Origin: a virus
Reading direction: 5' to 3' (one strand)
Length of the DNA: 64,000 nt
IMG/VR virus record: IMGVR_UViG_3300032770_000007
Span: 1 to 64,000 of that record
The notes below the pieces were generated by a model. The model was not told where the DNA came from. It saw only the letters and a program-made list of their open reading frames with translations, and ran no database searches. Made by a program: the position numbers and the translations under genes. Shown piece after piece: positions 17,670 to 47,992 of this stretch (its first letter is position 1; every line of letters begins with the position of its first letter).

Positions 17670-17920
17670 AGGTGGCGTATGAGTAACAGAGAACACCACC
17701 AGAAACTCTGGATTCAGCTTTAGGCTGCTAGTGCCATTTCTGGCAAATCGAATGCATCATCGTCGTTTGCATTTAACGTTTTGTGCTGCTTAGGGCAGTC
17801 ACCTGTCCGGTAGCCATTGATTTATTCCGCGCCCAATCGAAACCTGGTCATCCCCATATGGTGGAGATGTGGGGAATCGAACCCCAGTCTTGAACGATTT
17901 TAGTCAACAGTTATACTACC
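17670..17920 (-). ncRNA. ssrA: Two-piece (circularly permuted) tmRNA; tag ANDDDAFDLPEMALAA
   Basis: Acceptor piece (TGGGG-TTCGATT-CCCCA, CATCTCC-ACCA ending 17859) precedes the coding piece starting GGGGATG at 17855; G3:U70; tag at 17770-17720; outer ends approximate. Confidence 0.9.
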
Positions 17921-17951
17921 ATCAGAACTATTTAGTTTACTACAAATATCC

Positions 17952-18194
17952 TTAAAAGTCAATCATTTCCATGGTGTTTATCTCTTCCTCTTGTTGTTCG
18001 TACTTTTCATAAAGTTCTGCAAGTTGATTGAATGCCGAAGCCACGCATTTGGCTTGTTGTTCTGCTAATATTTCTTCATTAGATACATAATATCCAACTC
18101 CAGGAGAATAACGAGCAGGATCATATGGTTTCAAATAACCTTTAGCATACTCTCGTAAAACTTCAGAAAACTTGGGTCTCATATTTCTTTTCAT
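17952..18194 (-). CDS. Hypothetical protein
   Basis: ORF in operon orientation. Confidence 0.45.
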   Translation of the reverse strand: MKRNMRPKFSEVLREYAKGYLKPYDPARYSPGVGYYVSNEEILAEQQAKCVASAFNQLAELYEKYEQQEEEINTMEMIDF

Positions 18195-18317
18195 CCTCTG
18201 TTGAAGAAATAACTATTCTCAAACCATCAAACTCTTTGTAATATGGTATGAATAGTTCGGTTGTAGAATACCTTTGCAGATTTTCTACAACCTCTGCCAT
18301 TATAGTTTCAAAATTCT

Positions 18318-19022
18318 TCATAATGTTAGTAACTTATGCTTCATCAAATCACCACGTTCTCTAGCTGGAATAGGCATTGTGGCTACAGCCGTGACCTGAT
18401 TACCTATATCTGGTTCTAAAAATGACCAATACTTCAAACCACGATAATCCAAATCACCTTTCACAGCATTCAAAGCACTATCATCCCTCACGCCAATCAC
18501 CGTGAAATATAAACCATCAGGAGTAACATTCTTCAACTGCACCACATCATCCTTCTGAATGGTAGCTAGTTGATAGCCTGCTTTCAGAGCCACATGCGCC
18601 GCCTGAACTAACTGATAGGCTGGTGGGAGATCCTGTCTAACAAAAATATAAACATAATGTCTCTTGTAGTATTCCTCTACATCAAAATAACTATACACCA
18701 ACCAATGTACCAGTTCTTTGTATATACTTTGATACTTCTCATCCAATGCCTTGAATGGTGCATCAAGGATAGTGTTGAGTACACTAGTATTACAAATAGC
18801 AATGACCAAAGCACCAAAAGGTTTCAATCCATTATCTAACTTGATTTGTCGTTTGATGGGAGTAAATGCTTTTGCCAGGTACTGAACGATAATCTTCTTT
18901 GATTTCTCAATATCTCCATCAGTTGTTTCTAATGCTCTAAGAATAGCATACTGCACGACATGATGGGACTGGATCTGTTTTGTATTGGCCAGATGACGCC
19001 AAAGTTTTCTATAGTCTAACAT
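18318..19022 (-). CDS. Protein with C-terminal peptidyl-tRNA hydrolase 2 (Pth2)-like domain
   Basis: YVYIFVRQDL...QLVQAAHVA...FLEPDIGNQVTAVA; SD AGAGGA before ATG 19022 (ORF-track start 19115 is probably too long). Confidence 0.75.
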   Translation of the reverse strand: MLDYRKLWRHLANTKQIQSHHVVQYAILRALETTDGDIEKSKKIIVQYLAKAFTPIKRQIKLDNGLKPFGALVIAICNTSVLNTILDAPFKALDEKYQSIYKELVHWLVYSYFDVEEYYKRHYVYIFVRQDLPPAYQLVQAAHVALKAGYQLATIQKDDVVQLKNVTPDGLYFTVIGVRDDSALNAVKGDLDYRGLKYWSFLEPDIGNQVTAVATMPIPARERGDLMKHKLLTL

Positions 19023-19035
19023 TTTAGTTCCTCTT

Positions 19036-19137
19036 CTATATTTTGCTTGAAATACCTTCTGCAACATATGAAGAGGATGGAGGACCACGCGCATCATAAC
19101 AAACCTACGTATCAAGAACCTATAGACACAAACTCAT
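19036..19137 (-). promoter_or_regulatory. Leader peptide with two internal TAG codons and RGPP motif overlapping an RBS-sequestering hairpin
   Basis: GGAG-N6-ATG; MSLCL*VLDT*VCYDARGPPSSSYVAEGISSKI*; TCCTCTTC (19077-19070) pairs with GAAGAGGA (19036-19029). Confidence 0.7.
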
Positions 19138-19138
19138 T

Positions 19139-19666
19139 TTATTCTCCAGAATGACTATCATTATTTATATCCTTGTTGGGTAATAGTTCATGAGGATTAA
19201 CTCTTGGTTCTGCAAGAAACTGTTCTTGCGGTACTGATGAATGACCACCATTACCACCATTCAATAATTGACCATGACCAAACTTTCCAAATGTAGGAAT
19301 GCCTTGTTGTCTGGCTGCTTTGGCATCATCCAGTTCTTTGGCTAGTTCTGAAGAAAATGGGACAGAATAAAGTCTTGTTGATTTATCAGAACCTTTACCA
19401 GAAGACTTCATCCACATTTCAATATGCTTTCCTTGACCTTTTATATCAGATATCACGGCATGATCCAAATACTCTACTCTATCCTTGGGCCAATGAGGAT
19501 AGGCTCTACCCATGAGATCAGGGATAGAAAAAGACAAATACAATGCCAATATCAAAGTAAGAGGTATCATGAACCATTTGAGCCAATAACTAACAGGTGT
19601 TCTGATTACGAGATAACCAGCAAACAAAGCAAAACTAGTCAAAAGGATTAGAATAGTATAAATCAT
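19139..19666 (-). CDS. Membrane protein, third gene of a MotA/TolQ-type cassette
   Basis: Two N-terminal TM segments, RLYSVPFS.EL. Confidence 0.6.
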   Translation of the reverse strand: MIYTILILLTSFALFAGYLVIRTPVSYWLKWFMIPLTLILALYLSFSIPDLMGRAYPHWPKDRVEYLDHAVISDIKGQGKHIEMWMKSSGKGSDKSTRLYSVPFSSELAKELDDAKAARQQGIPTFGKFGHGQLLNGGNGGHSSVPQEQFLAEPRVNPHELLPNKDINNDSHSGE

Positions 19667-19667
19667 A

Positions 19668-20318
19668 TCAGAAATCTGTTGTTTGACCTGGTGGTGGTGA
19701 ACTATCTATGAATACAAATGGGTGAAAGTCTGTAGTAATGTTATCAATAGAGCCATCTGGTTCTATATCAAACTGAAAAGCAGTTGCTTCATTATTTGGT
19801 TCATTCAAGGTAACTACTCTGCTATAAACTGGTCTATAGTTAGGATCCAAATCGGTTAGTTGGACAGTAACTGGTACCGGATTCCTATCAACCTCATTAG
19901 TCAGAGTATCAGAATGCCTAGCATAAAACTCTACATTGACCACATATCTACCTGGTCTGCGTTGTCTTATTGAAACAACTTCCTGATTGATATAAAGCAC
20001 TCGAGGATTGCCATCAACCATGACGACATCATTTTGCTGTCCCAGATCATCATGGTCTAGAAATACATATCCATTTTCTCTTTTTCTATAACCTATAGCA
20101 TCATGCTCTGGAGTTAAAATCCATAGGTCTATATCATGAGCAGAGTGATCAGGCCAAGACATTATAACCTGTATTTCTGCTTTTGGATCTACTTTATGTT
20201 GATCTTTCTTGGTATTGATTAGAAGAAAACTCATAATAAACAAAACAAAAACAGCTGCTAGCATGGCAAACAGCATGTCAACATAACTCAATAATACAGA
20301 ATACTTTCCATTATTCAT
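19668..20318 (-). CDS. MotB/ExbD-like single-TM protein
   Basis: SYVDMLF TM helix with conserved Asp, then W.D.S.HDIDLW, LD.DDLG, PG.YVVNV domain. Confidence 0.6.
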   Translation of the reverse strand: MNNGKYSVLLSYVDMLFAMLAAVFVLFIMSFLLINTKKDQHKVDPKAEIQVIMSWPDHSAHDIDLWILTPEHDAIGYRKRENGYVFLDHDDLGQQNDVVMVDGNPRVLYINQEVVSIRQRRPGRYVVNVEFYARHSDTLTNEVDRNPVPVTVQLTDLDPNYRPVYSRVVTLNEPNNEATAFQFDIEPDGSIDNITTDFHPFVFIDSSPPPGQTTDF

Positions 20319-21320: not shown

Positions 21321-21552
21321 TCAAATAGTCTCCAAATAATATTACCTATTCCCAATCCAAGCAATGAAGAAAAACAGAATAGACTTATAACAAATGGACC
21401 ATAATACCAAGCATTAGGATTAGGATTGATTACGTGATATAATCCAAACATTGACCAACACCAAACTATGCAACCAGAAAATACCGCAAAAAGAAACTGA
21501 AGAAAATCTTTGAAATGTTTTTGCATTTGATCCTCCAATATATTTAGGATAG

Positions 21553-21624
21553 CGCGCGAGGCGGGATTTGAACCCGCAACCGTGATGTTTAGAGCACCCC
21601 GCTCTGACGTTGAGCTACACGCGC
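21553..21624 (-). tRNA. Amber suppressor tRNA (anticodon CTA), CCA not encoded
   Basis: Cloverleaf: GCTC/GAGC D-stem, loop CT-CTA-AA, GCGGG-TTCAAAT-CCCGC T-arm. Confidence 0.85.
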
Positions 21625-21625
21625 A

Positions 21626-22198
21626 TTATTCACCATACAGAAGCATAATAATATCAAAAGCCGCATCATGAACAGGATCATGCTTTATGACCTGATATTC
21701 ATCAAACTCAGGAATAACACAATAACCTCTGGCTGCTGTTTCTTTTGTCAAGGCCAGAGCTGTTCTGAAATCCATCCAATCCCAATAGTTACAAAGTAAA
21801 GGAATATTAAACTGACGACAAAGATTATCAATAATCATTTGATCCAAAGAACCTCTTTGCCAAAAGGTCTTATGACCATTACAATATTGAGTTAGTTGTT
21901 CTAAACCAGTTCTAACTGGCAAATCTGTATCTGTTCTACGAAGGCTTCTCTTGATAGGAATCTCTGCCTGCTTTTTCCACCACTCCAAGGCATCCTTCTC
22001 TACCTTTCTACCAACAGTAACCTGATTATCAGTATTGAATTTTACAAAACAAGAGTTGGTAAGATACTTCTGATATTTTTCATTGACTGTCAAATCAGCA
22101 TCACGTTCTTTATCAGACAAATCAAATGCTATAGCACCAACACTTAGCACCACAGCATTACTTTCTAATCCAAGAGTTTCAACATCAAAACTAATCAT
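21626..22198 (-). CDS. dexA: DEDDh 3'-5' exonuclease (DexA-like)
   Basis: FDVETLG, WQRGSLD, DFRT, HDPVHDAAFD. Confidence 0.8.
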   Translation of the reverse strand: MISFDVETLGLESNAVVLSVGAIAFDLSDKERDADLTVNEKYQKYLTNSCFVKFNTDNQVTVGRKVEKDALEWWKKQAEIPIKRSLRRTDTDLPVRTGLEQLTQYCNGHKTFWQRGSLDQMIIDNLCRQFNIPLLCNYWDWMDFRTALALTKETAARGYCVIPEFDEYQVIKHDPVHDAAFDIIMLLYGE

Positions 22199-24394: not shown

Positions 24395-24913
24395 CTAAAC
24401 ACGAGGATGAACAGGACACTCTAAATCTTCTCTGATCTCCTTACTATTACAAATACAATCAGGATGTTCTGGAACAATTTCTCCAACCGGTTCTTCTGGT
24501 TCTATTACAAATCCTGACACTTCACAATACCTATCCACAATCAAATCAATCAACTTTGGAGCCCTATATGCAAAATTATCTGGAATGTTTAGAACATAGA
24601 TAGGAACTTCTTTACCCTTGAACTCTTTCAATGCTTTCAAATCATAGGCTCTCTCCAAGATTTTCTTATGGGTCTGTTCCATGCATACGATTTCATCACA
24701 CCATTGCATTAAAACTTCATCAGTCCAGATCAATGCATAATCTTCAACAGCACCAGCAGCCCGAGTATTGAAGTTGAAAGGCGCATTACTCAATACCCAG
24801 GCTGCAGTTGGAGAGCGCAAAATACCACCAGAGCACACACAAAGAACTCTTTTATAATCTTCTGGATGTTGGTATTGATTATGACAAGTAGCTATTCTAT
24901 TCATCATTCCCAT
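24395..24913 (-). CDS. Low-molecular-weight phosphatase (CX5R) family protein
   Basis: VLCVCSGGILRSPTA; LNIPDNF. Confidence 0.8.
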   Translation of the reverse strand: MGMMNRIATCHNQYQHPEDYKRVLCVCSGGILRSPTAAWVLSNAPFNFNTRAAGAVEDYALIWTDEVLMQWCDEIVCMEQTHKKILERAYDLKALKEFKGKEVPIYVLNIPDNFAYRAPKLIDLIVDRYCEVSGFVIEPEEPVGEIVPEHPDCICNSKEIREDLECPVHPRV

Positions 24914-31008: not shown

Positions 31009-31010
31009 GG

Positions 31011-40121: not shown

Positions 40122-40126
40122 AAAAC

Positions 40127-40888: not shown

Positions 40889-40893
40889 AAATT

Positions 40894-40970: not shown

Positions 40971-40976
40971 ATGAAT

Positions 40977-41052
40977 TGGTAGGTCCAGTCGGAACTGCCC
41001 CGACATCCAACACTTTAAGAGAGTGAGCTCTATCTGATTGAGTTATGGACCT
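40977..41052 (-). tRNA. tRNA-Lys(CTT)
   Basis: Loop CT-CTT-AA, CCA. Confidence 0.85.
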
Positions 41053-41057
41053 GAAAA

Positions 41058-41136
41058 TGGTGCGCGGATGTGGAATCGAACCACATTCTCAACTTCTTCA
41101 GAGTTGCGCTGATGTCACCAGACTAGCTCTCCACGC
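41058..41136 (-). tRNA. tRNA-Phe(GAA)
   Basis: Loop CT-GAA-GA, CCA. Confidence 0.85.
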
Positions 41137-41747
41137 ATGAATTTTTCATAATCTTCTTTTTCTAAAATGATTAGTTTTCGTTCAGGATAGGTGGCAAGAA
41201 TAATATTCATTTTCTTTCGGTCATTACCCCACCAATAACCTTTTATCTCTAACCAAATATCCAACATCGGAAGATAAAAATCTGGCGCATATGATTTCCA
41301 TTGGCCATCCATTTGATATTTCCAAACATCATTATTTGTTGATGGTTTATTCCATTGAATATTAAGTTCATTTAGTTTAGTAGCTATATCGCGTTCCCAA
41401 GTACCTTGAACTTTTATTCCAGAAACTTCATACCATTTGGATTTACCACCACGATTGTGTAAGGACTGTTCAATACTCAATCGTTGTCTTGCTTCAAGAC
41501 ACATAGGTGGAGGTTTCCAACCCTTATTCACTCTATCTCGAAGTTCTATAGCAACATTTGCCGCATATGCAGCTACTCTGTTATCAGTTTCTTTTGATAG
41601 ACCTCTGTTCCAAGCCTTTCTGGGTTGTTTAGGAAGTATACTAGTGCTAATATTAGCACAACCTTTCTTAGTATGCCAATATAATCCACTAGTAGTTGTT
41701 TCCTTATGACAACTTATACAAGAACACCTAAGTTTATATTTGTCCAT
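41115..41747 (-). CDS. PD-(D/E)XK homing endonuclease
   Basis: GTWE..IA..L, Y.PDFYLP....LEIKGYW; PRKAWNRGL. Confidence 0.8.
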   Translation of the reverse strand: MDKYKLRCSCISCHKETTTSGLYWHTKKGCANISTSILPKQPRKAWNRGLSKETDNRVAAYAANVAIELRDRVNKGWKPPPMCLEARQRLSIEQSLHNRGGKSKWYEVSGIKVQGTWERDIATKLNELNIQWNKPSTNNDVWKYQMDGQWKSYAPDFYLPMLDIWLEIKGYWWGNDRKKMNIILATYPERKLIILEKEDYEKFMRGELVW

Positions 41748-41798
41748 ATGAATTTATTTAGTACAGGGACGTGCTAATCTGTCTCAGCTAAGAACGCT

Positions 41799-41875
41799 TG
41801 GTGCCCCCGACAGGAGTCGAACCTGTAAAACCTTGTTTTTGAAACAAGTACGTATACCATTTCCGTCACAAGGGC
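41799..41875 (-). tRNA. tRNA-Leu(CAA), short variable loop
   Basis: Loop TT-CAA-AA, A73, CCA. Confidence 0.85.
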
Positions 41876-41879
41876 ATAT

Positions 41880-41955
41880 TGGACTCCCTGACTGTCAGTT
41901 CAGTCTCAGCTGCAGCTGGCAAACTTCGCGTTCTAGAAAGGCAAAGTGCAGGGAG
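41880..41955 (-). ncRNA. CCA-terminated tRNA-like RNA without a recognisable anticodon arm
   Basis: CTCCCTG/CAGGGAG-T-CCA terminal stem with adjacent ACTG/CAGT hairpin. Confidence 0.55.
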
Positions 41956-42029
41956 ATAAAAAATGGTGGAGTTATAGACCTGTAATAAGGCGTGATAGCT
42001 TTCAAACCCCATGCTATCAACTTATCAGC

Positions 42030-42121
42030 TGGCGGAGCATATAGGATTCGAACCTATGTGATGAGTTTAATCATCAAGTTGTTTAGCAAACAACCGTCAT
42101 CAGCCTCTCGACCAATGCTCC
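42030..42121 (-). tRNA. tRNA-Ser(GCT)
   Basis: Loop TT-GCT-AA, long V-arm, CCA. Confidence 0.9.
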
Positions 42122-42127
42122 TTAGAA

Positions 42128-42218
42128 TGGAGGAAGGCTGAGGTATCGCGCCCCAAGTGATTCTTCACCACTCCCATCGCTTTCAAGGCGAGTTCTATGC
42201 TTCATAGATTAACCTTCC
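42128..42218 (-). tRNA. tRNA-Ser(TGA)
   Basis: Loop CT-TGA-AA, long V-arm, CCA. Confidence 0.85.
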
Positions 42219-42286
42219 AAATATTCCGAAATGCGAGGCTCGGAATAACACCATCACAGGCTATCGCAATATGTCCTGTGTCTGAT

Positions 42287-42361
42287 TGGTAGGTGACCAC
42301 GGTACTGCCCCGCGTTCTCACAGTAATCGGCTGTGGGTTTTGCTATCTAAACTAGTCACCC
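42287..42361 (-). tRNA. tRNA-Ile(GAT)
   Basis: Loop CC-GAT-TA (atypical), CCA. Confidence 0.8.
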
Positions 42362-42367
42362 ATAAAA

Positions 42368-42550
42368 TCATTCAATTGATGCGAAAGCCTTTGCTGCCTG
42401 AAGATCATTTGGATAGTTCTTCATATGACGACGGAGCTTGCGCTTTTTGTTCCTCAATTCAGTGGCCAGAGCCTTGTATGATGTGCAAAAGTTTTGATTG
42501 CGACCATACTTACGGTTTTTCTTTCCACCTTTCTTGTGGGCTGTTTTCAT
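42368..42550 (-). CDS. 60-aa highly basic peptide
   Basis: GAGGT SD; MKTAHKKGGKKNRKYGRN. Confidence 0.6.
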   Translation of the reverse strand: MKTAHKKGGKKNRKYGRNQNFCTSYKALATELRNKKRKLRRHMKNYPNDLQAAKAFASIE

Positions 42551-42620
42551 GACACATTACCTCTTCGGTTTAACTACATGTCATAAAAACCTCCTATTAA
42601 GTTGAATGTTACTATTTATT

Positions 42621-42694
42621 TGGATCATCCCCTTGGTTCCGCCCCAAGATTGCCGATTTCAGAGACCGGAGTACTACTATTGTACTAGGGATGA
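42621..42694 (-). tRNA. tRNA-Gln(CTG)
   Basis: Loop CT-CTG-AA, CCA. Confidence 0.85.
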
Positions 42695-42699
42695 ATAAC

Positions 42700-42773
42700 T
42701 GGATCACCGACTTGGATTCGCACCAAGATTAGATGGGTCAAAGCCACCGGTCCTGCTATTAGACGATCAGTGA
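42700..42773 (-). tRNA. tRNA-Gln(TTG)
   Basis: Loop CT-TTG-AC, CCA. Confidence 0.85.
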
Positions 42774-42780
42774 ATAAAAA

Positions 42781-42857
42781 TGGTGCTTCCATCCAGTGCT
42801 GCCCTGGATATTCCTGATTGAGAATCAGGTGACATAGCTAACGTTGTCTATGGAAGC
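42781..42857 (-). tRNA. tRNA-Glu(CTC)
   Basis: Loop TT-CTC-AA, CCA. Confidence 0.85.
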
Positions 42858-42904
42858 AAATTGCTGATATACCCTGGTATAGGAGATTACCAAATAAGCC
42901 AAGT

Positions 42905-42976
42905 ATGTTAGTGGTTGTATCGAGCAACCTTCTCCTTGTTCAAAGCAAGGTGATCTGCCATTTAATCTAACTAATT
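42905..42976 (-). pseudogene. Degenerate tRNA (TTG anticodon)
   Basis: Intact anticodon arm CCTTG-CTTTGAA-CAAGG and T-arm; weak acceptor stem, no CCA. Confidence 0.55.
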
Positions 42977-43030
42977 AGTAAACTTTGCTTACTTTTTATC
43001 CATCACAGGACTGCGATCAGCAAACGCAGA

Positions 43031-43115
43031 AGGAGCGACTGGATGGAATCAAACCACCTACCTTCCAAAGGACTAACTAAAGCCAATGGCTGCTCTATCA
43101 TTGAGCTACAATCGC
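43031..43115 (-). tRNA. Atypical tRNA with expanded anticodon arm
   Basis: Normal acceptor, D and T arms; about 10 extra nt in anticodon arm; ends TCCT. Confidence 0.6.
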
Positions 43116-43120
43116 AGAAA

Positions 43121-43195
43121 TGGAGCCTTGTAGGAGATTCTAACTCCTGTCTCTGACTTGGAAGGCCAGGGCCCGAACAACTAGACCAACAAGGC
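43121..43195 (-). tRNA. tRNA-Gly(TCC)
   Basis: Loop CT-TCC-AA, U73, CCA. Confidence 0.88.
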
Positions 43196-43201
43196 ATGAA
43201 A

Positions 43202-43287
43202 TGGTACCCTTGGCAGGACTTGCACCCGCACACCTTTACGGCGACTGGTTCTAAGCCAGTTACGTCTTCTAATTCCGTCACAAGGGC
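43202..43287 (-). tRNA. tRNA-Leu(TAG)
   Basis: Loop CT-TAG-AA, long V-arm. Confidence 0.88.
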
Positions 43288-43794
43288 AAAAGCTGGGTTG
43301 GATTTATCAAATAGCCCTGACATTATCGTGGCCATAGCCCTGATAAATCAGTCTATTTGAAACGAGAGTCCCAGCACTCCGTATAGGATGCCTCACAAAT
43401 GTAACGTTGAGTATTTTATCGACTTATTACCATGTAGCCTAGTTAGATAAGCTTTGGCAGGTCCACGAACAGGCCGCGCTCTAATCTCGCTTCAACTTCA
43501 GAACTGCACTGACATTTATGAGACATATTTTAACTTGAAACTGTTTTTTCTATGGCTATCTTTGCTGCTTCTAATGTTCGGTAGTAACCATACACTTTGT
43601 ACTCTAGACTTGTCTTTACTTCTACTAATGAAGCCACCCATATACTTCCATATGGTTGAACCAACCCAATAAGTTTTTCATTTGAATCAAAATATTCTAA
43701 AGAAACTTCTGATAATAGATTCTTATTACCTTTAGCATCTTTCCAATCAGGCTTTACCCAAACACCACCACTCATATTATAAACTCCTATGAAT

Positions 43795-43870
43795 TGGAAT
43801 CCCCAGCCAGACTTGCACTGGCAACCTGCTCCTTAGGAGAGAGCCATTCTTTCTATTGAACTATGGGGAC
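43795..43870 (-). tRNA. tRNA-Arg(CCT)
   Basis: Loop CT-CCT-AA, CCA. Confidence 0.88.
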
Positions 43871-44566
43871 TTACTTGACTGATAAATCTTTGACGAGAGC
43901 CTTACGCATTTTCTGCCTAATAGCATCCATGTAACCATTTTTACGAATGTGCTTATAGGCCAGATTGGTTTCATCAAACTCTGAATCACCCTTGGCGCAA
44001 ATCTCTGCTCTCTTATCTTTGATAGAATCTTTCAGTTTATCTAACTGCTGATAGCTTGCTTTGGGATCTCTTACAAGATCAACTATTTTCTTGCGCCATC
44101 TGTCAGCAATCCCAGCTACCTTGTCTTCATCAAAATCTGGTATCTGATATTCTGGTTGAGTAACCCATTTGTTGTCTTTGATAGAATACTCTCCATCAGA
44201 GCCAGCCTTGCTGTCTAGATCACAAATGGTCATTTCCATGGGAATACCATAGATACGAATATCATGATCACGTTTGAATAGTTTCTTCTTTGTTTCAAAG
44301 AAGTTCTCTAAGAGGTCTTTGTTGGCTTTCTTGAAATCAGCCATGTCAACATAGATATTAATGTCTATATCTGACTTGGCTGTCCAAGTATAATTTGCCA
44401 TGGAACCAACTAGTCTGATGTCTTTTGTATCAATAGGAACACCACAAAAATCAATGAAGGTATTCACAATAGCCAGGAGACCCTTACGGACCTCTGGTTT
44501 CATTTCCATGCCATCCCAAATCTTAGGACAGAGGGTTTTGTGATATTCAACTTTGATGTCTGCCAT
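43871..44566 (-). CDS. Pol-beta-superfamily nucleotidyltransferase
   Basis: LVGSMANYTW..KSDIDINI (GS-x-DxD); start ATG 44566 after CATAAATA promoter (ORF-track extension is inside tRNA-Glu). Confidence 0.8.
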   Translation of the reverse strand: MADIKVEYHKTLCPKIWDGMEMKPEVRKGLLAIVNTFIDFCGVPIDTKDIRLVGSMANYTWTAKSDIDINIYVDMADFKKANKDLLENFFETKKKLFKRDHDIRIYGIPMEMTICDLDSKAGSDGEYSIKDNKWVTQPEYQIPDFDEDKVAGIADRWRKKIVDLVRDPKASYQQLDKLKDSIKDKRAEICAKGDSEFDETNLAYKHIRKNGYMDAIRQKMRKALVKDLSVK

Positions 44567-44583
44567 GAGACTATTTATGGATT

Positions 44584-44660
44584 TGGTAGACCATGAGAGT
44601 GCTGCCCTCTCTATTTCGCCTTGAAAGGGCGATGACATAGCTAACGTTGTCTAATGGTCC
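44584..44660 (-). tRNA. tRNA-Glu(TTC)
   Basis: Loop CT-TTC-AA; D-arm identical to Glu(CTC). Confidence 0.88.
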
Positions 44661-44784
44661 GAATAAGCGTGGGCGTAATAGCCTTTATACGAAAATCGCG
44701 TGCCATAAACACTTGCATTGAATGGGTGGCCAACCTATTCAATGGTCTGCTGGAATCGAACCAGCATTTCCCACTACGAAAAAT

Positions 44785-44860
44785 TGGAGTATCAGGTCAG
44801 AATCGAACTGACACATAACAGTTTTGCAGACTGCTCCCTTAGCCATTTGGGTACTGACAC
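44785..44860 (-). tRNA. tRNA-Cys(GCA)
   Basis: Loop CT-GCA-AA, U73. Confidence 0.9.
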
Positions 44861-44866
44861 ATAATA

Positions 44867-44943
44867 TGGAGGGAAGAATGGGATTTGAACCCATACATAC
44901 GACATTCACAGTGTCGGGACTTAGCCAGTTTGTCAATCTTCCC
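44867..44943 (-). tRNA. tRNA-His(GTG)
   Basis: Loop CT-GTG-AA; no G-1, U73. Confidence 0.88.
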
Positions 44944-44949
44944 AAAATT

Positions 44950-45023
44950 TGGCGCCTGAGACGGGACTTGAACCCGCATTTACTTGCGTGACAAGCAAGT
45001 GTCCTACATTAAACGACTCAGGC
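44950..45023 (-). tRNA. tRNA-Asp(GTC)
   Basis: Loop TT-GTC-AC, G73. Confidence 0.9.
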
Positions 45024-45029
45024 ATGAAA

Positions 45030-45106
45030 TGGTGCGCGTACAGGGATTTTAACCCTGGTCTCAACCTTGGCAAGGTCGCATACTAAACAGGCTGTACTAT
45101 ACACGC
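45030..45106 (-). tRNA. tRNA-Gly(GCC)
   Basis: Loop TT-GCC-AA. Confidence 0.85.
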
Positions 45107-45108
45107 AT

Positions 45109-45183
45109 TGGCGACCCCAGATGGATTTGAACCACCACACGCAGTTTTGGAGACTGCAGTCCTGCCAGTTAGACGATGGAGCC
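45109..45183 (-). tRNA. tRNA-Trp(CCA)
   Basis: Loop CT-CCA-AA, G73. Confidence 0.9.
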
Positions 45184-45262
45184 ATTGAATTGATGTCAGC
45201 CGCAAGACTGACGGGGCAAACTCGGACATTTGAACCCAAACAAGGATTTGCGCCTTGTGATT

Positions 45263-45337
45263 TGGTAGCGGGTCTGTGATTTGCACACAGGATCTTGTGG
45301 TTATGAGCCACACGAGTTGCTACTTCTCCAACCCGCA
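45263..45337 (-). tRNA. tRNA-fMet(CAT), initiator-like
   Basis: 1:72 mismatch, loop CT-CAT-AA. Confidence 0.8.
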
Positions 45338-45411
45338 ATATCCTTACAATCTGGTTGTCAATTCAACCCCAGGATTCTAGACCAGAGCACGGTTGCGGCT
45401 CAGATTGTATT

Positions 45412-45506
45412 TGGTATCCCTACTAGGACTCGAACCTAGATTGTGCTCTAATCTGGAGCCAAGGACGGTTTATAAGGCCGTTGTTTTGCCATTAAACTAT
45501 AGGGAC
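45412..45506 (-). tRNA. tRNA-Ile(TAT) with long variable arm
   Basis: Loop CT-TAT-AA; GCTC/GAGC V-arm hairpin. Confidence 0.85.
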
Positions 45507-45511
45507 AAATT

Positions 45512-45587
45512 TGGTCGGAGTGGCAGGACTCGCACCTGCGATAACCGAGTTCCAGGCTCGGGAAGATTGCTGCTACTTTACACTCCG
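45512..45587 (-). tRNA. tRNA-Pro(TGG), divergent
   Basis: C1-G72, loop CC-TGG-AA. Confidence 0.8.
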
Positions 45588-46145
45588 AAAATTTATCAAA
45601 TACGTATCTATCCTTGATTGTATTTGATCTCTAAATCTACTATGAATATACTGATGATGAGTTGGGCATAATGGAACCAAATTTTCTGGTCTGTTATCTT
45701 CATGATTTTCATTTACATGGTGAGCGGCAACTATATTTTGCTCGCTACAGATCAAACATTTTTTGCCATGATGCCTAAAACAAATCGTTCGATAGGTCAA
45801 CGATTCTTCATTTTGAGAAGAACCTCTTGGCTTCAAAAGATTAGAACATTTATAAGAACAAGTTACATTTTGTGCATAGTTCTTTATAGGAACATGACAT
45901 ATAGGACATAACTTTGTATTCAATGGATTTAGATAACAAAATGATTTATGTCTCATTATCATGGATCTTGAATATAATTTATTACAATAATCGCAGTTCT
46001 CTTTTATTGTAGTAACATTTACACCATTCTTCATCAAGTTGTTGACATTTACAATCCGTTCTGGATTTTGCTTACAACGAATTTGATGTTGTACTTGCTG
46101 TTTTCTATTCTTATTTGTTCGATTACAAAACTTACATTCTAACAT
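45573..46145 (-). CDS. HNH endonuclease with zinc-finger repeats
   Basis: CxxC/H repeats, HH.NENH.DN..ENL.PLCPTHH..IH; late promoter at 46173. Confidence 0.8.
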   Translation of the reverse strand: MLECKFCNRTNKNRKQQVQHQIRCKQNPERIVNVNNLMKNGVNVTTIKENCDYCNKLYSRSMIMRHKSFCYLNPLNTKLCPICHVPIKNYAQNVTCSYKCSNLLKPRGSSQNEESLTYRTICFRHHGKKCLICSEQNIVAAHHVNENHEDNRPENLVPLCPTHHQYIHSRFRDQIQSRIDTYLINFRSVK

Positions 46146-46180
46146 ACATCATCCATTTTAGTCAGGCTGATGTATTTAGT

Positions 46181-46256
46181 TGGTCAGGATGAGAGGACTC
46201 GAACCTCCGATTACGTGCGCCCAAGGCACGGGCCATAGCCACTAGGCGACATCCTG
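46181..46256 (-). tRNA. tRNA-Pro(TGG)
   Basis: C1-G72, loop CT-TGG-GC. Confidence 0.88.
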
Positions 46257-46272
46257 GGCAAAAGATTAAAAT

Positions 46273-46349
46273 TGGTACACGCGACTGGACTTGCGCCAGT
46301 ATATCCCTGCTTGTAGGGCAGGTCCGCACCTATTTCCGGACACGCGTGC
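46273..46349 (-). tRNA. tRNA-Val(TAC)
   Basis: Loop CC-TAC-AA. Confidence 0.85.
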
Positions 46350-46422
46350 GCTGAAAATAATTGGCCCTCTTATCCTAAAGGGCAAAGGTTCAACTGAACT
46401 CTGACATTCTGTTGAATGTAGT

Positions 46423-46497
46423 TGGTGGACCGTAGCGGTAACGCTCCGCTTTCTCCGCGGTGCAAACGCGGCATAATACCTTCTATACTAACAGCCC
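46423..46497 (-). tRNA. tRNA-Ala(TGC)
   Basis: G3:U70, loop TT-TGC-AC. Confidence 0.9.
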
Positions 46498-46502
46498 AAA
46501 TT

Positions 46503-46802
46503 TGGCGCGGCGGTATTGACTTACATCAATGCACTTATCGTCCAAAGCCTGCTTGTTCAGGCAGGATGGCCGCATATATGGAGCGGCGGCACTGATAAAT
46601 CAGTACACTTACCTTCCTAGAGCACGAAACAAGTTTCGCGCTGTCAGCGTAGGATGGCCGCATATATGGCGTGGTGTGAGGAGTGTATGCCCCAACTTAC
46701 CAACCATCTCCTGATGGTTGACCACATAAAATGGCGTGGCGTTGCTACTTATTCCTAGCAAACTTACCGACTGAAGGCAACATAAGCTACCTAGTAGGCC
46801 AC
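46503..46802 (-). ncRNA. Array of four related CCA-ended non-cloverleaf small RNAs
   Basis: Units 46503-46573, 46579-46661, 46667-46725, 46732-46802: GYGGY..stem..RTAAGT..hairpin..C-RCCRC-N-CCA. Confidence 0.8.
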
Positions 46803-46810
46803 ATATAAAA

Positions 46811-46897
46811 TGGTGAGTGTCGTAGGAATCGAACCTACTCAGTCATAAGACAGCAAGGTTACAGCTTGCTGCGCCTCTCCAACTGCGCCGGACACTC
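46811..46897 (-). tRNA. tRNA-Tyr(GTA)
   Basis: Loop CT-GTA-AC, long V-arm. Confidence 0.9.
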
Positions 46898-47276
46898 GAT
46901 ATTCGTTCCATTTGTTACCAACAACTATTGATGATCTAACACCAATCAAAGCACTTTTTGGTATCAAATATTCTTCCCCAGATTTTGTAATCACATAAAG
47001 AATATCATAATCCAACTCATTAGCATATTTTTGAACTTTATCGCCCAAAGATCCACCAATCAATCTCAGTTCAACTATATAAGTTGATTTTGTTCTACCT
47101 ATCTGTGATGTAGTCTTAACTTGAACCTTTTTCAAGGTTCCATTATCATCAATAATCAAATCATAATCCTGACTATCCGTCAAAGGAATAGCAACTGTAT
47201 AACTACGACGTGTAAAATACGCGATAGCTGACCCTAGACCATAATCACCTTGCTTTTTACTATTTTTGAAATTCAA
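46839..47276 (-). CDS. PD-(D/E)XK endonuclease (PDDEXK_5-like homing endonuclease)
   Basis: K.QGD.G, P......YDLIID...L.KVQVKT, YLIP; TTG start after GGAGGT. Confidence 0.8.
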   Translation of the reverse strand: MNFKNSKKQGDYGLGSAIAYFTRRSYTVAIPLTDSQDYDLIIDDNGTLKKVQVKTTSQIGRTKSTYIVELRLIGGSLGDKVQKYANELDYDILYVITKSGEEYLIPKSALIGVRSSIVVGNKWNEYRVSGAVGEAQQAVTLLSYD

Positions 47277-47342
47277 AATACCTCCCGAAAATGAACGGTC
47301 TTTGAACACCTAAGTTCGGGAAGGACCGTGAGCCCATGTATT

Positions 47343-47420
47343 TGGAACCCCCGACAGGACTCGAACCTGCATGTATCTGGGTAGAAACCAGAGCCGTTAT
47401 TCCATTCCGGTCACGAGGGC
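47343..47420 (-). tRNA. tRNA-Arg(TCT)
   Basis: Loop TT-TCT-AC; body nearly identical to Arg(ACG). Confidence 0.88.
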
Positions 47421-47425
47421 AAATT

Positions 47426-47501
47426 TGGCTGCTTTGGTAGGACTCGCACCCACAACCTCCTGATTAACAGTCAGGGGCATCTACTTTGATACTACAAAGC
47501 A
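47426..47501 (-). tRNA. tRNA-Asn(GTT)
   Basis: Loop CT-GTT-AA, G73. Confidence 0.9.
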
Positions 47502-47503
47502 AT

Positions 47504-47578
47504 TGGTGCCTCATCTCAGACTTGCGCTGAGTTCTGCGGCTTACAAAACCGCTGCATCGCTATCTATGCTTATGAGGC
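47504..47578 (-). tRNA. tRNA-Thr(TGT)
   Basis: Loop TT-TGT-AA. Confidence 0.9.
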
Positions 47579-47582
47579 GAAA

Positions 47583-47992
47583 TAGTGCGGTAGCAATCCA
47601 TGGGGCACAACCACTTCTAACGCTACCGGAATCTGTGCCATCTACCATTATAACTAATAATCAACAATGTATAATCATAGACTGTGAGTTTCCTGCCTGA
47701 CTCGGACATTCGGCAAGTCATGGAGTTATTTCCACTTATACACGCGACTATGGGAAAAACATTTTTTTTCAAATCAACTGCTAGGAGATACATTTTTCCA
47801 ATAACCTCGGCAGTCAATGGTCTCCATGAAAAAAGGTAGAGACCAACCCCAAAATGCTTCTGTTTTCAGTGGAGCACTAATAGGCTTACCCACGTGGCTG
47901 GCACAACAGGTTGCTACCTCTGTTGTGAGTTCCATGCTGGCTTCCGGTTTCGGTTGATGTCCCTAGTGCGGTTGAACCAACATCCCAATCAA
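47583..47992 (-). ncRNA. Unassigned ~410-nt structured RNA heading the tRNA operon
   Basis: Consecutive hairpins, two loop-complementary pairings, no credible ORF, directly after an early promoter. Confidence 0.55.

What the first reader, a model, noticed from the sequence alone, without database searches (positions are those of the whole stretch)
17670..47992. A dispersed, near-complete tRNA maturation and ribosome-rescue toolkit
One window holds tRNAs for all 20 amino acids, RNase P RNA, a nucleotidyltransferase inside the tRNA array, Rnl1 plus Pnk plus phosphoesterase (tRNA repair), tmRNA, a GGQ hydrolase, Pth2 and a suppressor tRNA. Inference: a coordinated system to keep translation running when host defences destroy tRNAs or stall ribosomes, with the amber attenuator as its sensor.
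Basis: inference. Interest (0 to 1): 0.7.

Follow-up and report, generated by a model that had tools for sequence, protein, structure and literature searches.

The report
Phage tRNA array with ribosome-rescue genes
A large T4-like phage carries about 33 tRNA genes, a two-piece tmRNA, a release-factor-like hydrolase and an RNA-repair operon, a combination already known from other tRNA-rich phages and not one wired-together system.

Summary
The window is the first 64 kb of a 125,827-bp, about 69% complete T4-like myovirus contig.

Confirmed:
- a permuted two-piece tmRNA
- an amber-suppressor tRNA (CUA)
- 33 candidate tRNA genes
- a stand-alone GGQ (RF-1 domain) protein just downstream of the tRNA array
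- a translationally coupled operon of Pnk-like kinase, Rnl1, metallophosphoesterase and an LMW-phosphatase-like protein
- a pol-beta-type nucleotidyltransferase inside the array

Not confirmed:
- RNase P RNA: no Rfam match in four searches
- Pth2: no match by Pfam, PHROGs or tblastn
- tRNAs for all 20 amino acids: Glu and Val are missing
- any amber "sensor"

Across 22 viral records the parts do not travel as one unit. The GGQ gene sits beside tRNAs in 9 of 14 related loci. It co-occurs with permuted tmRNA in 6 of 8 GGQ-positive records. Rnl1 and the nucleotidyltransferase assort independently of it. The nucleotidyltransferase is absent from the closest complete relative, and one of its homologues is fused to an anti-CBASS Acb1 domain.

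tRNA arrays with RF-1-domain genes, tmRNA and homing endonucleases are already described in mycobacteriophages, and two-piece tmRNAs in aquatic phages. Verdict: a new member of a known kind, of modest interest.

The parts
17629..17969 (-). Two-piece (circularly permuted) tmRNA. The acceptor piece with an encoded CCA comes first, then the coding piece with the tag ANDDDAFDLPEMALAA.
   Evidence: ARAGORN. Rfam RF04321 142.1 bits and RF01850 103.7 bits, with the alignment showing the G3-U pair and CACCA. 84% identical over 111 nt to the tmRNA of the closest relative G001.
21552..21624 (-). Amber-suppressor tRNA (anticodon CUA). 63% GC, no encoded CCA, amino-acid identity undetermined.
   Evidence: ARAGORN and Rfam 53.9 bits. 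Structure and 3' end. No near relative among 207 tRNAs of the related loci. ARAGORN found no tRNA in the syntenic stretch of G001.
21626..22198 (-). DEDD-type 3'-5' exonuclease (Rv2179c-like), 2 nt upstream of the suppressor tRNA. Substrate unknown.
   Evidence: Pfam PF16473 E 3.8e-15. phrog_255 exonuclease E 5.1e-36. Homologue in G001 at 50% identity.
24395..24913 (-). Low-molecular-weight phosphatase-like protein, last gene of the repair operon. It carries a C-x5-R-S-P loop.
   Evidence: Motif VLCVCSGGILRSP. The Atlas structure search reached LMWPc clusters at TM 0.58-0.60, a lead only. No Pfam or PHROG hit. 51% identical homologue in the same place in G001.
24913..25494 (-). Calcineurin-like metallophosphoesterase (aq_1665 type). 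Candidate 2',3'-cyclic or 3'-phosphate end-healing enzyme.
   Evidence: Pfam Metallophos 29.5 bits. PDB 1xm7, E 1.4e-14. The DxH, GD, GNHD and GHxH motifs are visible. Its start overlaps the Rnl1 stop by 1 nt.
25494..26372 (-). T4 Rnl1-family RNA ligase, 292 aa.
   Evidence: Pfam RNA_lig_T4_1 45.3 bits against a cut-off of 28.3. Motif I K-I-N-G, EGIVV and K-M-K are visible. 48.5% identical over 303 aa (tblastn) to the G001 homologue; a second search gives 51%.
26344..26799 (-). P-loop kinase of the AAA_33 / polynucleotide-kinase type, with its own ATG after the upstream gene's TAG.
   Evidence: Pfam AAA_33 E 3.4e-11. phrog_2071 E 1.5e-37 and phrog_505 polynucleotide kinase E 5.6e-9. Sequence context.
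33230..33396 (-). Outlying pair of tRNAs, Thr(CGU) and Leu(UAA), next to two HNH endonuclease genes at 33401-34556.
   Evidence: HNH Pfam hits.
39051..39476 (-). Stand-alone GGQ (RF-1 domain) peptidyl-tRNA hydrolase of phage type (phrog_3122), with an acidic rather than basic C-terminus.
   Evidence: Pfam RF-1 53.4 bits. phrog_3122 E 9.5e-23. GGQ motif and the PDB ranking PrfH > RF2 > C12orf65 >> ArfB. ArfB NCBIfam 32.4 bits against a cut-off of 100. Tail charge.
40046..47578 (-). tRNA array of 30 candidate genes, interrupted by homing-type endonuclease ORFs (41115-41747, 45573-46145, 46839-47309), a DUF4329 ORF (40180-40704) and the nucleotidyltransferase.
   Evidence: 30 of all 33 tRNA candidates end in an encoded CCA. 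Endonuclease hits.
43871..44638 (-). Pol-beta-superfamily nucleotidyltransferase (phrog_36119). The probable true start is 24 codons in. Not a recognisable CCA-adding enzyme.
   Evidence: AlphaFold pLDDT 72.9. Weak Foldseek matches to ANT(9)/AadA and CdnE. PF01743 found nothing in the contig. The homologue P0008 is fused to Acb1. Absent from G001.
47582..47995 (-). Non-coding leader between the promoter-like sites and the first tRNA. It is probably what was read as RNase P RNA. It contains a roughly 90-nt block conserved with G001 and a hairpin just before the first tRNA.
   Evidence: Folding z-score -3.0. 77% identity over 88 nt with G001, and two helices kept through changes on both sides. 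No Rfam match. Found only in G001 in IMG/VR.
48000..48153 (-). Tandem sigma-70-like promoter matches upstream of the leader and array.
   Evidence: Two sites matching 10 of 12 consensus positions and four matching 9 of 12 in this stretch. Consensus matches only: the regional count of 30 against 24.6 expected is not enriched.

Best explanation
This is the early, minus-strand accessory region of an uncultured T4-like myovirus, estimated at about 180 kb. It carries several separately acquired, separately known kinds of translation-support genes. It is not one integrated system.

I see two real modules.

Module A is the tRNA array, with 30 genes plus 3 outliers. It is probably transcribed from sigma-70-like promoters near 48.0-48.15 kb through a structured leader, and it is followed by a phage-type GGQ peptidyl-tRNA hydrolase. 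A two-piece tmRNA lies 21 kb away.

Inferred mechanism for module A: the tRNAs keep decoding going as host tRNAs decline or are cut. The tmRNA, working with the host's SmpB, and the GGQ protein free ribosomes that stall on truncated mRNAs or empty A sites. The GGQ protein lacks ArfB's basic tail, so it must recognise its target in another way. Its GGQ-domain sequence is closest to PrfH, RF2 and C12orf65.

Module B is a four-gene, translationally coupled healing-and-sealing operon: P-loop kinase, Rnl1 ligase, metallophosphoesterase and an LMW-phosphatase-like protein.

Inferred mechanism for module B: it repairs tRNAs broken by anticodon nucleases, as T4 Pnkp and Rnl1 do. The end-healing phosphatase function is supplied by separate genes instead of a fused HAD domain.

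The amber-suppressor tRNA and the nucleotidyltransferase are strain-specific additions of uncertain role.

Shown: the identity of the parts, their order, their conservation in one relative, and their co-occurrence pattern. Inferred: every biochemical activity and the link to host defence.
For: Phage identity: PHROG hits to gp5, gp43, gp23, gp20 and gp18 equivalents. The major capsid protein is 56% identical to that of cyanomyoviruses. CheckV completeness is 69%.

Module A:
- The GGQ gene lies about 570 nt downstream of the last array tRNA.
- In 9 of 14 IMG/VR loci with a relative of this protein, 5 or more tRNAs lie within 10 kb, all on its strand.
- In 6 of those 14 loci a tRNA starts 1-71 nt after its stop codon.
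- The closest complete relative, G001, has a different GGQ subtype (32% identity over 65 aa) at the same position between the last array tRNA and the DNA ligase.
- All 8 GGQ-positive records have 19-54 Rfam tRNA matches, and 6 of the 8 have a permuted tmRNA.
- 205 of 232 isolate-phage records with this family are mycobacteriophages. In Catera the tmRNA sits inside the tRNA array and the RF-1 gene lies 18 kb away.

Module B:
- The kinase and Rnl1 ORFs overlap by 29 nt, and the next two gene junctions by 1 nt each.
- Catalytic motifs are present.
- The same four genes occur in the same order in G001 at 46-70% identity.

Independence of the modules: Rnl1 is in 2 of 8 GGQ-positive and 5 of 14 GGQ-negative records. 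The nucleotidyltransferase is in 4 of 22 records and lies near tRNAs in only 1 of those 4.
Against: - No expression or activity data exist. The only public run listed as holding the DNA is a DNA run.
- The host is unknown, so neither codon matching nor exposure to defence systems can be assessed.
- The 22-record profile is biased: 7 records were picked for GGQ, 13 for tmRNA and 2 for the capsid protein. Many records are fragments (22-100% complete) and several are close kin (L013/L014, L017/L018), so the counts overstate independent events.
- Family searches can miss divergent members. PF09511 missed the Rnl1 of G001, so some absences may be false.
- None of the 13 tmRNA-picked records has GGQ, so the GGQ-tmRNA link runs one way at best.
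- In Catera the RF-1 gene is not in the array.
- The contig lacks SmpB, so tmRNA function depends on the host's SmpB accepting it.
Confidence: 0.68

Rival explanations
1. All parts form one coordinated anti-defence system that senses translation damage through an amber-codon attenuator read by the suppressor tRNA, and then deploys tRNA repair, tRNA maturation and ribosome rescue together.
For: - All confirmed parts lie on one strand within 31 kb.
- The whole stretch is syntenic in G001.
- An in-frame TAG separates a 119-codon ORF from the kinase, and a tRNA(CUA) is present.
Against: - RNase P RNA and Pth2 are absent.
- The parts are separated by dozens of unrelated ORFs: NAD salvage, DNA ligase, MazG and homing endonucleases.
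- The kinase has its own start codon and ribosome-binding site.
- The 119-codon ORF, the suppressor tRNA and the nucleotidyltransferase were not found in G001: the ORF and the tRNA in the syntenic stretches I fetched, the nucleotidyltransferase in a search of the whole record.
- Rnl1 and the nucleotidyltransferase assort independently of GGQ and tmRNA.
Confidence: 0.05
2. The tRNAs, the tmRNA and the GGQ protein serve host take-over and codon supply, not counter-defence. When the phage degrades host mRNA and tRNA, ribosomes stall on the fragments. The phage then frees the ribosomes and supplies its own decoders. The tmRNA may also tag host nascent chains for recycling.
For: - This is the explanation offered in print for phage tmRNA (passages of PMC9004378).
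- Extra rescue factors beside tRNA arrays have been explained the same way (passages of PMC5966550).
- 30 of 33 tRNAs encode their own CCA.
- tRNA-rich records without any GGQ gene or Rnl1 exist, for example G015, which is 100% complete and has 24 Rfam tRNA matches.
Against: - It does not explain an Rnl1/kinase/phosphoesterase operon, whose only established phage role (recalled: T4 against PrrC) is counter-defence.
- NAD-salvage genes in the same region also hint at counter-defence (the role is recalled).
- This view is not exclusive of the best explanation. It differs only in the selective pressure.
Confidence: 0.2
3. The region is a general anti-defence and auxiliary island. The nucleotidyltransferase, and possibly the DEDD exonuclease, act on nucleotide second messengers or DNA rather than on tRNA, and their position among tRNAs is incidental.
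For: - One homologue of the nucleotidyltransferase (P0008, 44% identity) is fused to an Acb1 anti-CBASS domain: PF23474, 45.4 bits against a cut-off of 27.
- The best, though weak, structural matches include the CD-NTase CdnE.
- In 3 of 4 other records the gene is not near tRNAs.
- NAMPT and NMNAT-Nudix genes lie in the same region.
Against: - The structural matches are weak (TM about 0.28, one hit at E<1e-3) and equally fit aminoglycoside nucleotidyltransferases.
- There is a single fusion example.
- The Acb1 fold is a 2H phosphoesterase, which could also act on RNA 2',3'-cyclic ends.
Confidence: 0.07

Closest known systems
Cluster C (Bxz1-like) and related mycobacteriophages, and mycobacterial tRNA array units (Morgado & Vicente 2018, PMC5966550, passages read)
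   Same: - Large tRNA arrays interrupted by HNH or other endonuclease genes.
- A tmRNA and an RF-1-domain stand-alone GGQ gene in the same genome.
- The window's GGQ protein is 39-42% identical to the mycobacteriophage proteins listed.
- In Catera the tmRNA lies inside the array.
- An unnamed structured RNA of about 430 nt is reported in those arrays.
   Different: - A different phage lineage: T4-like with gp23/gp20/gp18 equivalents.
- The tmRNA is two-piece and lies outside the array.
- The PTH2-like gene reported for Cluster C arrays is not detectable here.
- In Catera the RF-1 gene lies between the DNA polymerase and UvsX, not beside tRNAs.
Two-piece tmRNA of Melnitz-like and pelagimyophage-type aquatic phages (Buchholz et al. 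2022, PMC9004378, passages read)
   Same: A permuted ssrA carried by a large T4-like myovirus behind an early-type promoter. That paper counts 53 two-piece tmRNAs among isolate phages. My pattern scan found 63 IMG/VR contigs, 60 of them confirmed by ARAGORN.
   Different: - No glutamine riboswitch match was found here.
- This phage has about 33 tRNAs, against 4 in Melnitz.
- The tag peptide differs from all 60 other viral tags listed.
T4 Rnl1 + Pnkp tRNA repair against the PrrC anticodon nuclease (recalled), and Clostridium thermocellum Pnkp with kinase, metallophosphoesterase and ligase domains (recalled)
   Same: An Rnl1-family ligase with motif I, IV and V residues, and a P-loop 5'-kinase with the Asp about 20 residues after the P-loop. 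As in CthPnkp, the phosphoesterase is a binuclear metallophosphoesterase.
   Different: - The kinase is a separate 151-aa protein without T4's fused HAD phosphatase.
- Two separate candidate phosphatases follow the ligase.
- Rnl1 is 292 aa against T4's 374 aa (the T4 length is recalled), so the C-terminal tRNA-specificity domain may be reduced.
- No activity has been tested.
ArfB/YaeJ, PrfH and mitochondrial C12orf65 stand-alone GGQ factors (Burroughs & Aravind 2019, PMC6514570, passages read)
   Same: - A codon-independent-looking GGQ domain of about 115-140 aa without a codon-recognition domain.
- By profile the closest solved chains are PrfH (E 9.9e-12), then RF2, with C12orf65 further down the list (E 1.3e-8).
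- That paper links PrfH and C12orf65 to the rescue of ribosomes jammed by RNA-targeting effectors.
   Different: - ArfB's defining basic C-terminal tail is missing. The last 45 residues hold 7 K+R and 10 D+E.
- The ArfB model scores 32.4 bits against a cut-off of 100.
- There is no RtcB partner next to it, as PrfH has.
- The family is annotated only as an "RF-1 domain" protein in phages.
Translation gene sets of huge phages (Al-Shayeb et al. 2020, PMC7162821, passages read)
   Same: tRNAs, tmRNA, release factors and nucleotidyltransferases are reported together as phage means of taking over translation.
   Different: - Those genomes exceed 200 kb and also carry SmpB, RF1/RF2, RRF and aminoacyl-tRNA synthetases.
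- Here SmpB and the class II CCA-adding enzyme are absent from the 126 kb in hand.

Membership tests
Two-piece (permuted) tmRNA | Score above the curated threshold of the permuted tmRNA covariance models | tested here: met
   RF04321 142.1 bits against 47, and RF01850 103.7 against 84.
Two-piece (permuted) tmRNA | Acceptor piece ending in CCA lies upstream of the coding piece; G3-U pair in the acceptor stem; tag reading frame ending in a hydrophobic ...LAA plus a stop codon | tested here: met
   The alignment shows ...CUCCACCA followed by GGGGAUG..., with G3 opposite U. The tag is ANDDDAFDLPEMALAA*.
Two-piece (permuted) tmRNA | Works with SmpB; processed into two RNAs; charged with alanine | not testable with these tools
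   The contig has no SmpB gene, so it would depend on the host's. No RNA data are available.
ArfB (YaeJ) alternative rescue factor | GGQ catalytic motif in an RF-1 domain | tested here: met
   GHGGQ at residues 38-42. Pfam RF-1 53.4 bits against 35.
ArfB (YaeJ) alternative rescue factor | Passes the curated ArfB equivalog model | tested here: not met
   NF006718 scores 32.4 bits against a cut-off of 100, and only 31 residues match. ArfB chains rank last in the family-profile search of the PDB, at E 1e-3 to 2e-3.
ArfB (YaeJ) alternative rescue factor | Basic C-terminal tail that probes the empty mRNA channel | tested here: not met
   The last 45 residues are net acidic in the window protein (7 K+R, 10 D+E) and in 12 of the 14 IMG/VR homologues.
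T4 Rnl1 RNA ligase | Pfam RNA_lig_T4_1 above the cut-off, with the motif I lysine and motifs IV and V | tested here: met
   45.3 bits against 28.3, covering model positions 1-227 of 227. K-I-N-G, EGIVV and K-M-K are seen in the translation (motif names recalled).
T4 Rnl1 RNA ligase | C-terminal tRNA-specificity domain and sealing of broken anticodon loops | not tested
   Only about 60 residues follow motif V. No sequence match to any solved Rnl1 chain was found.
T4 Pnkp (polynucleotide kinase-phosphatase) | N-terminal P-loop 5'-kinase | tested here: inconclusive
   P-loop GLPGSGKS. phrog_505 polynucleotide kinase E 5.6e-9, but phrog_2071 "ATPase" scores better at E 1.5e-37. There is no specific PDB or NCBIfam match.
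T4 Pnkp (polynucleotide kinase-phosphatase) | Fused C-terminal HAD-type 3'-phosphatase domain | tested here: not met
   The protein ends after the kinase domain at 151 aa. The phosphoesterases are encoded by separate genes.
Bacterial or archaeal RNase P RNA | Match to any RNase P covariance model | tested here: not met
   No RNase P family was listed. RF00010 gave 0 candidates in the contig, while the control search found it in 11 of 14 control genomes.
Pth2 peptidyl-tRNA hydrolase | Match to Pfam PTH2 (PF01981) or to a phage PTH2-like protein | tested here: not met
   0 candidates at E<=10. No hit in hmmscan of 49 ORFs. The Catera array ORFs gave no match. A very divergent member cannot be excluded.
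CCA-adding tRNA nucleotidyltransferase | Class II head domain (PF01743), or class I architecture of about 400-450 aa | tested here: not met
   PF01743 found nothing in the contig. The protein is about 231 aa. CCA-adding enzymes appear only at Foldseek ranks 31 and 34, with E>0.1.
Pol-beta superfamily nucleotidyltransferase | G-[GS]-x(9-13)-D-x-[DE] motif plus a third carboxylate | tested here: met
   G78, S79, D90 and D92 are invariant, as is the K-R-D-H-D block, in all 8 aligned sequences, the window's own included. NTP_transf_2 scores 22.9 against 21.
Amber suppressor tRNA | Cloverleaf with a 7-nt anticodon loop reading CUA | tested here: met
   ARAGORN structure. Rfam tRNA 53.9 bits. Charging and read-through cannot be tested here.

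The most novel reading that the evidence does not exclude
The phage-type GGQ proteins (phrog_3122) may be a distinct class of codon-independent release factor with an acidic tail and no ArfB-like mRNA-channel probe. They appear to be co-transcribed with tRNA arrays and have become associated with a phage tmRNA independently in actinophages and in this T4-like lineage. On this reading they clear ribosomes jammed when host tRNA-targeting defences or phage-induced RNA decay empty the A site. Together with the tRNA array they would form a portable counter-defence cassette. The covarying leader RNA upstream of the array would then be a new processing or regulatory RNA of that cassette.
Probability: 0.25. 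Interest if true: 0.6.

Novelty: new member of a known kind. Interest (0 to 1): 0.3.

Why it matters
Phage tRNA sets, tmRNAs and RNA-repair enzymes are now read as answers to host tRNA-targeting immunity and to host shut-off. This contig adds an uncultured T4-like example in which an RF-1-domain hydrolase sits just downstream of the tRNA array. It shows the same linkage recurring in several viral lineages. That makes the phage GGQ family a good target for a first biochemical study.

It also shows that a tidy-looking "toolkit" breaks up into independent modules once relatives are compared. That is a caution against reading co-location in a hyperplastic early region as a functional system.

Tried and rejected
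- Megablast of 18 kb against isolate phages gave no match. Distant blastn gave only short patches.
- Single-protein scans of IMG/VR with the nucleotidyltransferase and with Rnl1 found no close relatives.
- The PF09511 family search missed the Rnl1 of G001, which tblastn and a protein search did find. I therefore treat family-search absences as soft.
- The AlphaFold model of the GGQ protein, built from an 11-row alignment, was too poor to search with (pLDDT 59.2, GGQ domain below 50).
- The nucleotidyltransferase model was moderate (pLDDT 72.9) and gave only weak matches.
- The Atlas look-up of the 127-aa ORF at 39656-40039, between the array and the GGQ gene, gave nothing usable.
- A tmRNA-specific pattern found no bacterial genome, so there is no host clue.
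- Sequencing-run look-up: no RNA holder was listed. The one DNA holder may be the source sample, and I did not lay reads.
- Earlier-findings look-ups returned nothing.
- The RNase P reading of the leader is rejected. There is no model match, and the shared ACAGAA-type words are too short to count.
- The in-frame TAG before the kinase is rejected as an attenuator.
- The aberrant tRNA at 43032-43115 is not the missing Glu or Val tRNA. Its anticodon arm does not form, and only its T arm resembles G001's Val(GAC).
- Literature searches found no paper on GGQ genes in the tRNA arrays of T4-like phages. The mycobacterial case is in print. Supplementary tables of those papers were not seen and may list more.

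Full report
WHAT THE SEQUENCE IS

The window is bases 1-64000 of a single 125,827-bp viral contig. IMG/VR classes the contig as linear and CheckV estimates it at 69% complete. GC content is about 0.33-0.46 and nearly all genes are on the minus strand.

PHROG hits to a baseplate hub-lysozyme, a family B DNA polymerase, the major head protein, the portal and the tail sheath mark it as a T4-like myovirus. Its major head protein is at most 56% identical to that of any isolate phage, the best being Synechococcus myoviruses. The only public run listed as holding the DNA is labelled a wetland metagenome and may be the source sample.

The closest large relative in IMG/VR is a 176,865-bp record called G001 here. 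It is rated 100% complete and its head protein is 76% identical.

CHECKING THE LISTED PARTS

tmRNA. ARAGORN calls a permuted tmRNA at 17629-17951(-) with the tag ANDDDAFDLPEMALAA. Rfam's permuted-tmRNA model scores 142.1 bits against a gathering score of 47, and beta_tmRNA scores 103.7 against 84. The alignment shows an acceptor piece ending in CUCCACCA, directly followed by the GGGGAUG 5' end of the coding piece, with G3 opposite U. This part is solid.

tRNAs. ARAGORN at default settings lists 28 tRNA calls, one of them a plus-strand call that overlaps a minus-strand tRNA. At -ps90 it lists 34 in the window, two of them such plus-strand overlaps. Rfam adds one more at 47507-47578, whose loop reads TGT by eye. 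That makes 33 minus-strand candidates:
- the CUA tRNA at 21552-21624
- two at 33230-33396
- 30 at 40046-47578

Rfam supports 30 of the 33, 28 at or above the gathering score. Three are doubtful: 42905-42976, 43032-43115 (its anticodon arm does not form) and 41058-41136.

The isotypes cover 18 amino acids. Glu and Val are missing. G001, by contrast, has Glu(CUC), Glu(UUC), Val(UAC) and Val(GAC). Thirty of the 33 end in an encoded CCA. The suppressor does not.

RNase P RNA. No RNase P family appears at any threshold: gathering score over the whole window, E<=1 over 15-50 kb, E<=10 over 39.9-48.4 kb, E<=10 over the 441-nt leader alone, or RF00010 over the whole contig.

The finding's end coordinate, 47992, coincides with the start of a roughly 410-nt non-coding leader behind tandem promoter-like sites. 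I take this leader to be what was read as RNase P RNA. It folds better than shuffled versions (z = -3.0). It shares an 88-nt block, 77% identical, with G001. One 8-bp helix is kept through two double changes and one wobble. A second 6-7-bp helix, just before the first tRNA, has every position changed yet stays complementary. So it is a real conserved RNA element, but with only two sequences its nature is open.

Pth2. PF01981 gives no candidate in the contig even at E<=10. Pth1 gives none either. None of the 49 ORFs I scanned with Pfam hits it. The small ORFs of the Catera tRNA array, where a PTH2-like gene is reported, have no tblastn match. This part is not supported.

GGQ hydrolase. The ORF at 39051-39476(-) has an RF-1 domain (53.4 bits against 35), the sequence GHGGQ, and matches phrog_3122, "RF-1 domain peptide chain release factor".

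It is not ArfB:
- The ArfB equivalog model gives 32.4 bits against a cut-off of 100.
- In a family-profile search of the PDB, PrfH (9.9e-12) and RF2 (1.5e-10) lead and C12orf65 follows further down (1.3e-8), while ArfB/YaeJ chains come last at about 1e-3.
- The C-terminus is net acidic, not basic.

tRNA repair. Four genes are translationally coupled: the kinase and Rnl1 ORFs overlap by 29 nt, and the next two junctions by 1 nt each.
- A 151-aa P-loop kinase: AAA_33, and phrog_505 polynucleotide kinase.
- Rnl1: PF09511, with motifs visible.
- A metallophosphoesterase like Aquifex aq_1665.
- A 172-aa protein with a C-x5-R-S-P loop and an LMW-phosphatase-like predicted fold. This last assignment is a lead, not a proof.

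The same four genes occur in the same order in G001, at 46-70% identity.

Nucleotidyltransferase. The ORF at 43871-44638 is a pol-beta-type enzyme with an invariant G-S...D-x-D motif. Nothing ties it to tRNA maturation:
- The contig has no PF01743 match.
- The moderate AlphaFold model (pLDDT 72.9) matches aminoglycoside nucleotidyltransferases and the CD-NTase CdnE only weakly, and CCA-adding enzymes rank at 31 and below.
- It has only 7 relatives in the large protein set, and one of them is fused to an anti-CBASS Acb1 domain.
- It is absent from G001.
- In the four other records that have it, it lies near tRNAs in only one.

Suppressor tRNA and the "amber attenuator". The CUA tRNA is real. 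It is GC-rich (63%), lacks an encoded CCA, has no near relative among 207 tRNAs of the related loci, and ARAGORN finds none in the syntenic part of G001.

TAG ends 20 of 187 crude ORFs, and the large structural genes are intact under code 11, so there is no recoding. The only in-frame TAG beside a toolkit gene separates a 119-codon ORF from the kinase. The kinase has its own ATG 12 nt later, behind GGTGGTG, and the 119-codon ORF has no homologue in the G001 stretches I fetched. I found no support for a sensor.

DO THE PARTS BELONG TOGETHER?

I profiled 22 viral records: 2 picked by capsid similarity, 7 by a GGQ relative and 13 by a permuted-tmRNA pattern, the latter restricted to contigs of 80 kb or more.

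- GGQ is in 8 of 22 records, by Pfam and by the family profile alike.
- All 8 have 19-54 Rfam tRNA matches. GGQ-negative records have 3-46.
- Six of the 8 have a permuted tmRNA. The two without are 22% and 39% complete.
- None of the 13 tmRNA-picked records has GGQ.
- Rnl1, combining the family and protein searches, is in 7 of 22: 2 of 8 GGQ-positive and 5 of 14 GGQ-negative.
- The nucleotidyltransferase is in 4 of 22.

At the locus level, 9 of 14 GGQ loci have 5 or more tRNAs within 10 kb, all on the gene's strand. In 6 of the 14 a tRNA begins 1-71 nt after the stop codon. G001 carries a different GGQ subtype at the same spot.

Caveats. The sample is biased by how it was picked. Several loci are close kin. 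Many records are fragments. The family search had at least one false negative.

Even so, the pattern is clear enough. tRNA array plus GGQ is a recurrent physical module. tmRNA tends to accompany it at genome level. The repair operon and the nucleotidyltransferase go their own way.

WHAT IS ALREADY KNOWN

- tblastn of the GGQ protein against isolate phages hits 232 records, 205 of them mycobacteriophages annotated "RF-1 domain peptide chain release factor".
- In Catera (Bxz1-like) the tRNA array at 90-97 kb contains the tmRNA, and the RF-1 gene lies 18 kb downstream between the DNA polymerase and UvsX.
- Morgado & Vicente 2018 (PMC5966550, passages read) already report RF-1-domain genes, a PTH2-like gene, tmRNA, HNH endonucleases and a structured RNA of about 430 nt in mycobacterial and mycobacteriophage tRNA arrays. 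They suggest that extra rescue factors accompany extra tRNAs.
- Buchholz et al. 2022 (PMC9004378, passages read) describe two-piece tmRNAs in aquatic myophages: 402 of 18,146 phage genomes have a tmRNA, 53 of these tmRNAs are two-piece, and 50 of the 53 come from marine or aquatic phages.
- Al-Shayeb et al. 2020 (PMC7162821, passages read) list tmRNA, SmpB, release factors and CCA-adding enzymes in huge phages.
- Burroughs & Aravind 2019 (PMC6514570, passages read) argue that PrfH and C12orf65-type GGQ factors are tied to RNA damage in biological conflicts.
- The T4 Rnl1/Pnkp-PrrC story and the domain make-up of Clostridium thermocellum Pnkp are recalled, not read here.

MECHANISM I THINK MOST LIKELY

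The tRNA array is transcribed early from sigma-70-like promoters and is cut out by host RNase P and 3' processing enzymes. It needs no CCA addition. It maintains decoding as host tRNAs fall or are cleaved.

Ribosomes that stall anyway are freed in one of two ways. One is the phage tmRNA with host SmpB. The other is the GGQ protein hydrolysing the peptidyl-tRNA. The GGQ protein lacks ArfB's basic tail, so its target recognition is unknown.

Separately, the kinase, the two phosphoesterases and Rnl1 heal and seal tRNAs cut in the anticodon loop.

All of these activities are inferred from family membership and motifs. None is shown. Whether the pressure is host defence or the phage's own shut-off of the host cannot be decided from sequence.

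VERDICT

This is a new member of known kinds, of modest interest. The phage-type GGQ family beside tRNA arrays and the covarying leader RNA are the two points worth following up.

Noticed in passing
window 47582-47995 (-), and L118 18190-18638: A conserved non-coding leader lies upstream of the first array tRNA. An 88-nt block is 77% identical to G001 and has an 8-bp helix kept through compensatory changes. A short hairpin with a T-loop-like inner stem lies directly before the first tRNA, and its outer stem differs at every position yet still pairs. It matches no Rfam family and occurs only in these two records.
   Followed up: partly
window 29635-32087 (-): A nicotinamide phosphoribosyltransferase gene is followed by a fused NMN adenylyltransferase-Nudix gene. 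This NAD+ salvage pair is conserved in G001. From recall, such pairs are described as phage counter-measures to NAD-depleting defence.
   Followed up: no
protein P0008 (homologue of window 43871-44638): One homologue of the array nucleotidyltransferase carries a C-terminal Acb1 (anti-CBASS 2H phosphodiesterase) domain. In two other viral records the matching open frame is 472-482 aa, which suggests further fusions that I did not examine.
   Followed up: partly
window 33401-34556, 41115-41747, 45573-46145, 46839-47309 (-): Five homing-type endonuclease ORFs (HNH, endonuclease I/VII-like, PD-(D/E)XK) sit within or beside the tRNA clusters. G000 and G001 differ in tRNA content, which fits endonuclease-driven turnover of array content as proposed for mycobacteriophages.
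   Followed up: no
window 45412-45506 (-), and L005 6319-6413, L119 487-580: A 94-95-nt tRNA called Ile(UAU), with a long extra region after the anticodon arm, recurs in three separate phage arrays. Its true identity is unclear: it may have a long variable arm or a small insertion.
   Followed up: no
window 16376-17485 (-) and 20311-21320 (-): An IMP dehydrogenase / GMP reductase-family gene lies directly downstream of the tmRNA. Weak PagL-like (lipid A deacylase) and MotA/ExbB-like matches lie a few kb upstream of it. These are unusual auxiliary genes for a T4-like phage.
   Followed up: no
G001 (L119 6702-7091) against window 39051-39476: The two closest relatives carry different GGQ subtypes at the same genomic position. 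G001's version keeps the canonical release-factor C-terminal block, while the window's has the phage-type acidic tail. This could be either replacement or very fast divergence.
   Followed up: partly
The genome search family search, G001: The PF09511 family search returned no candidate in G001, although a 48.5-51% identical homologue of the window's Rnl1 is there. Absences from this kind of search should be checked with a protein query.
   Followed up: yes
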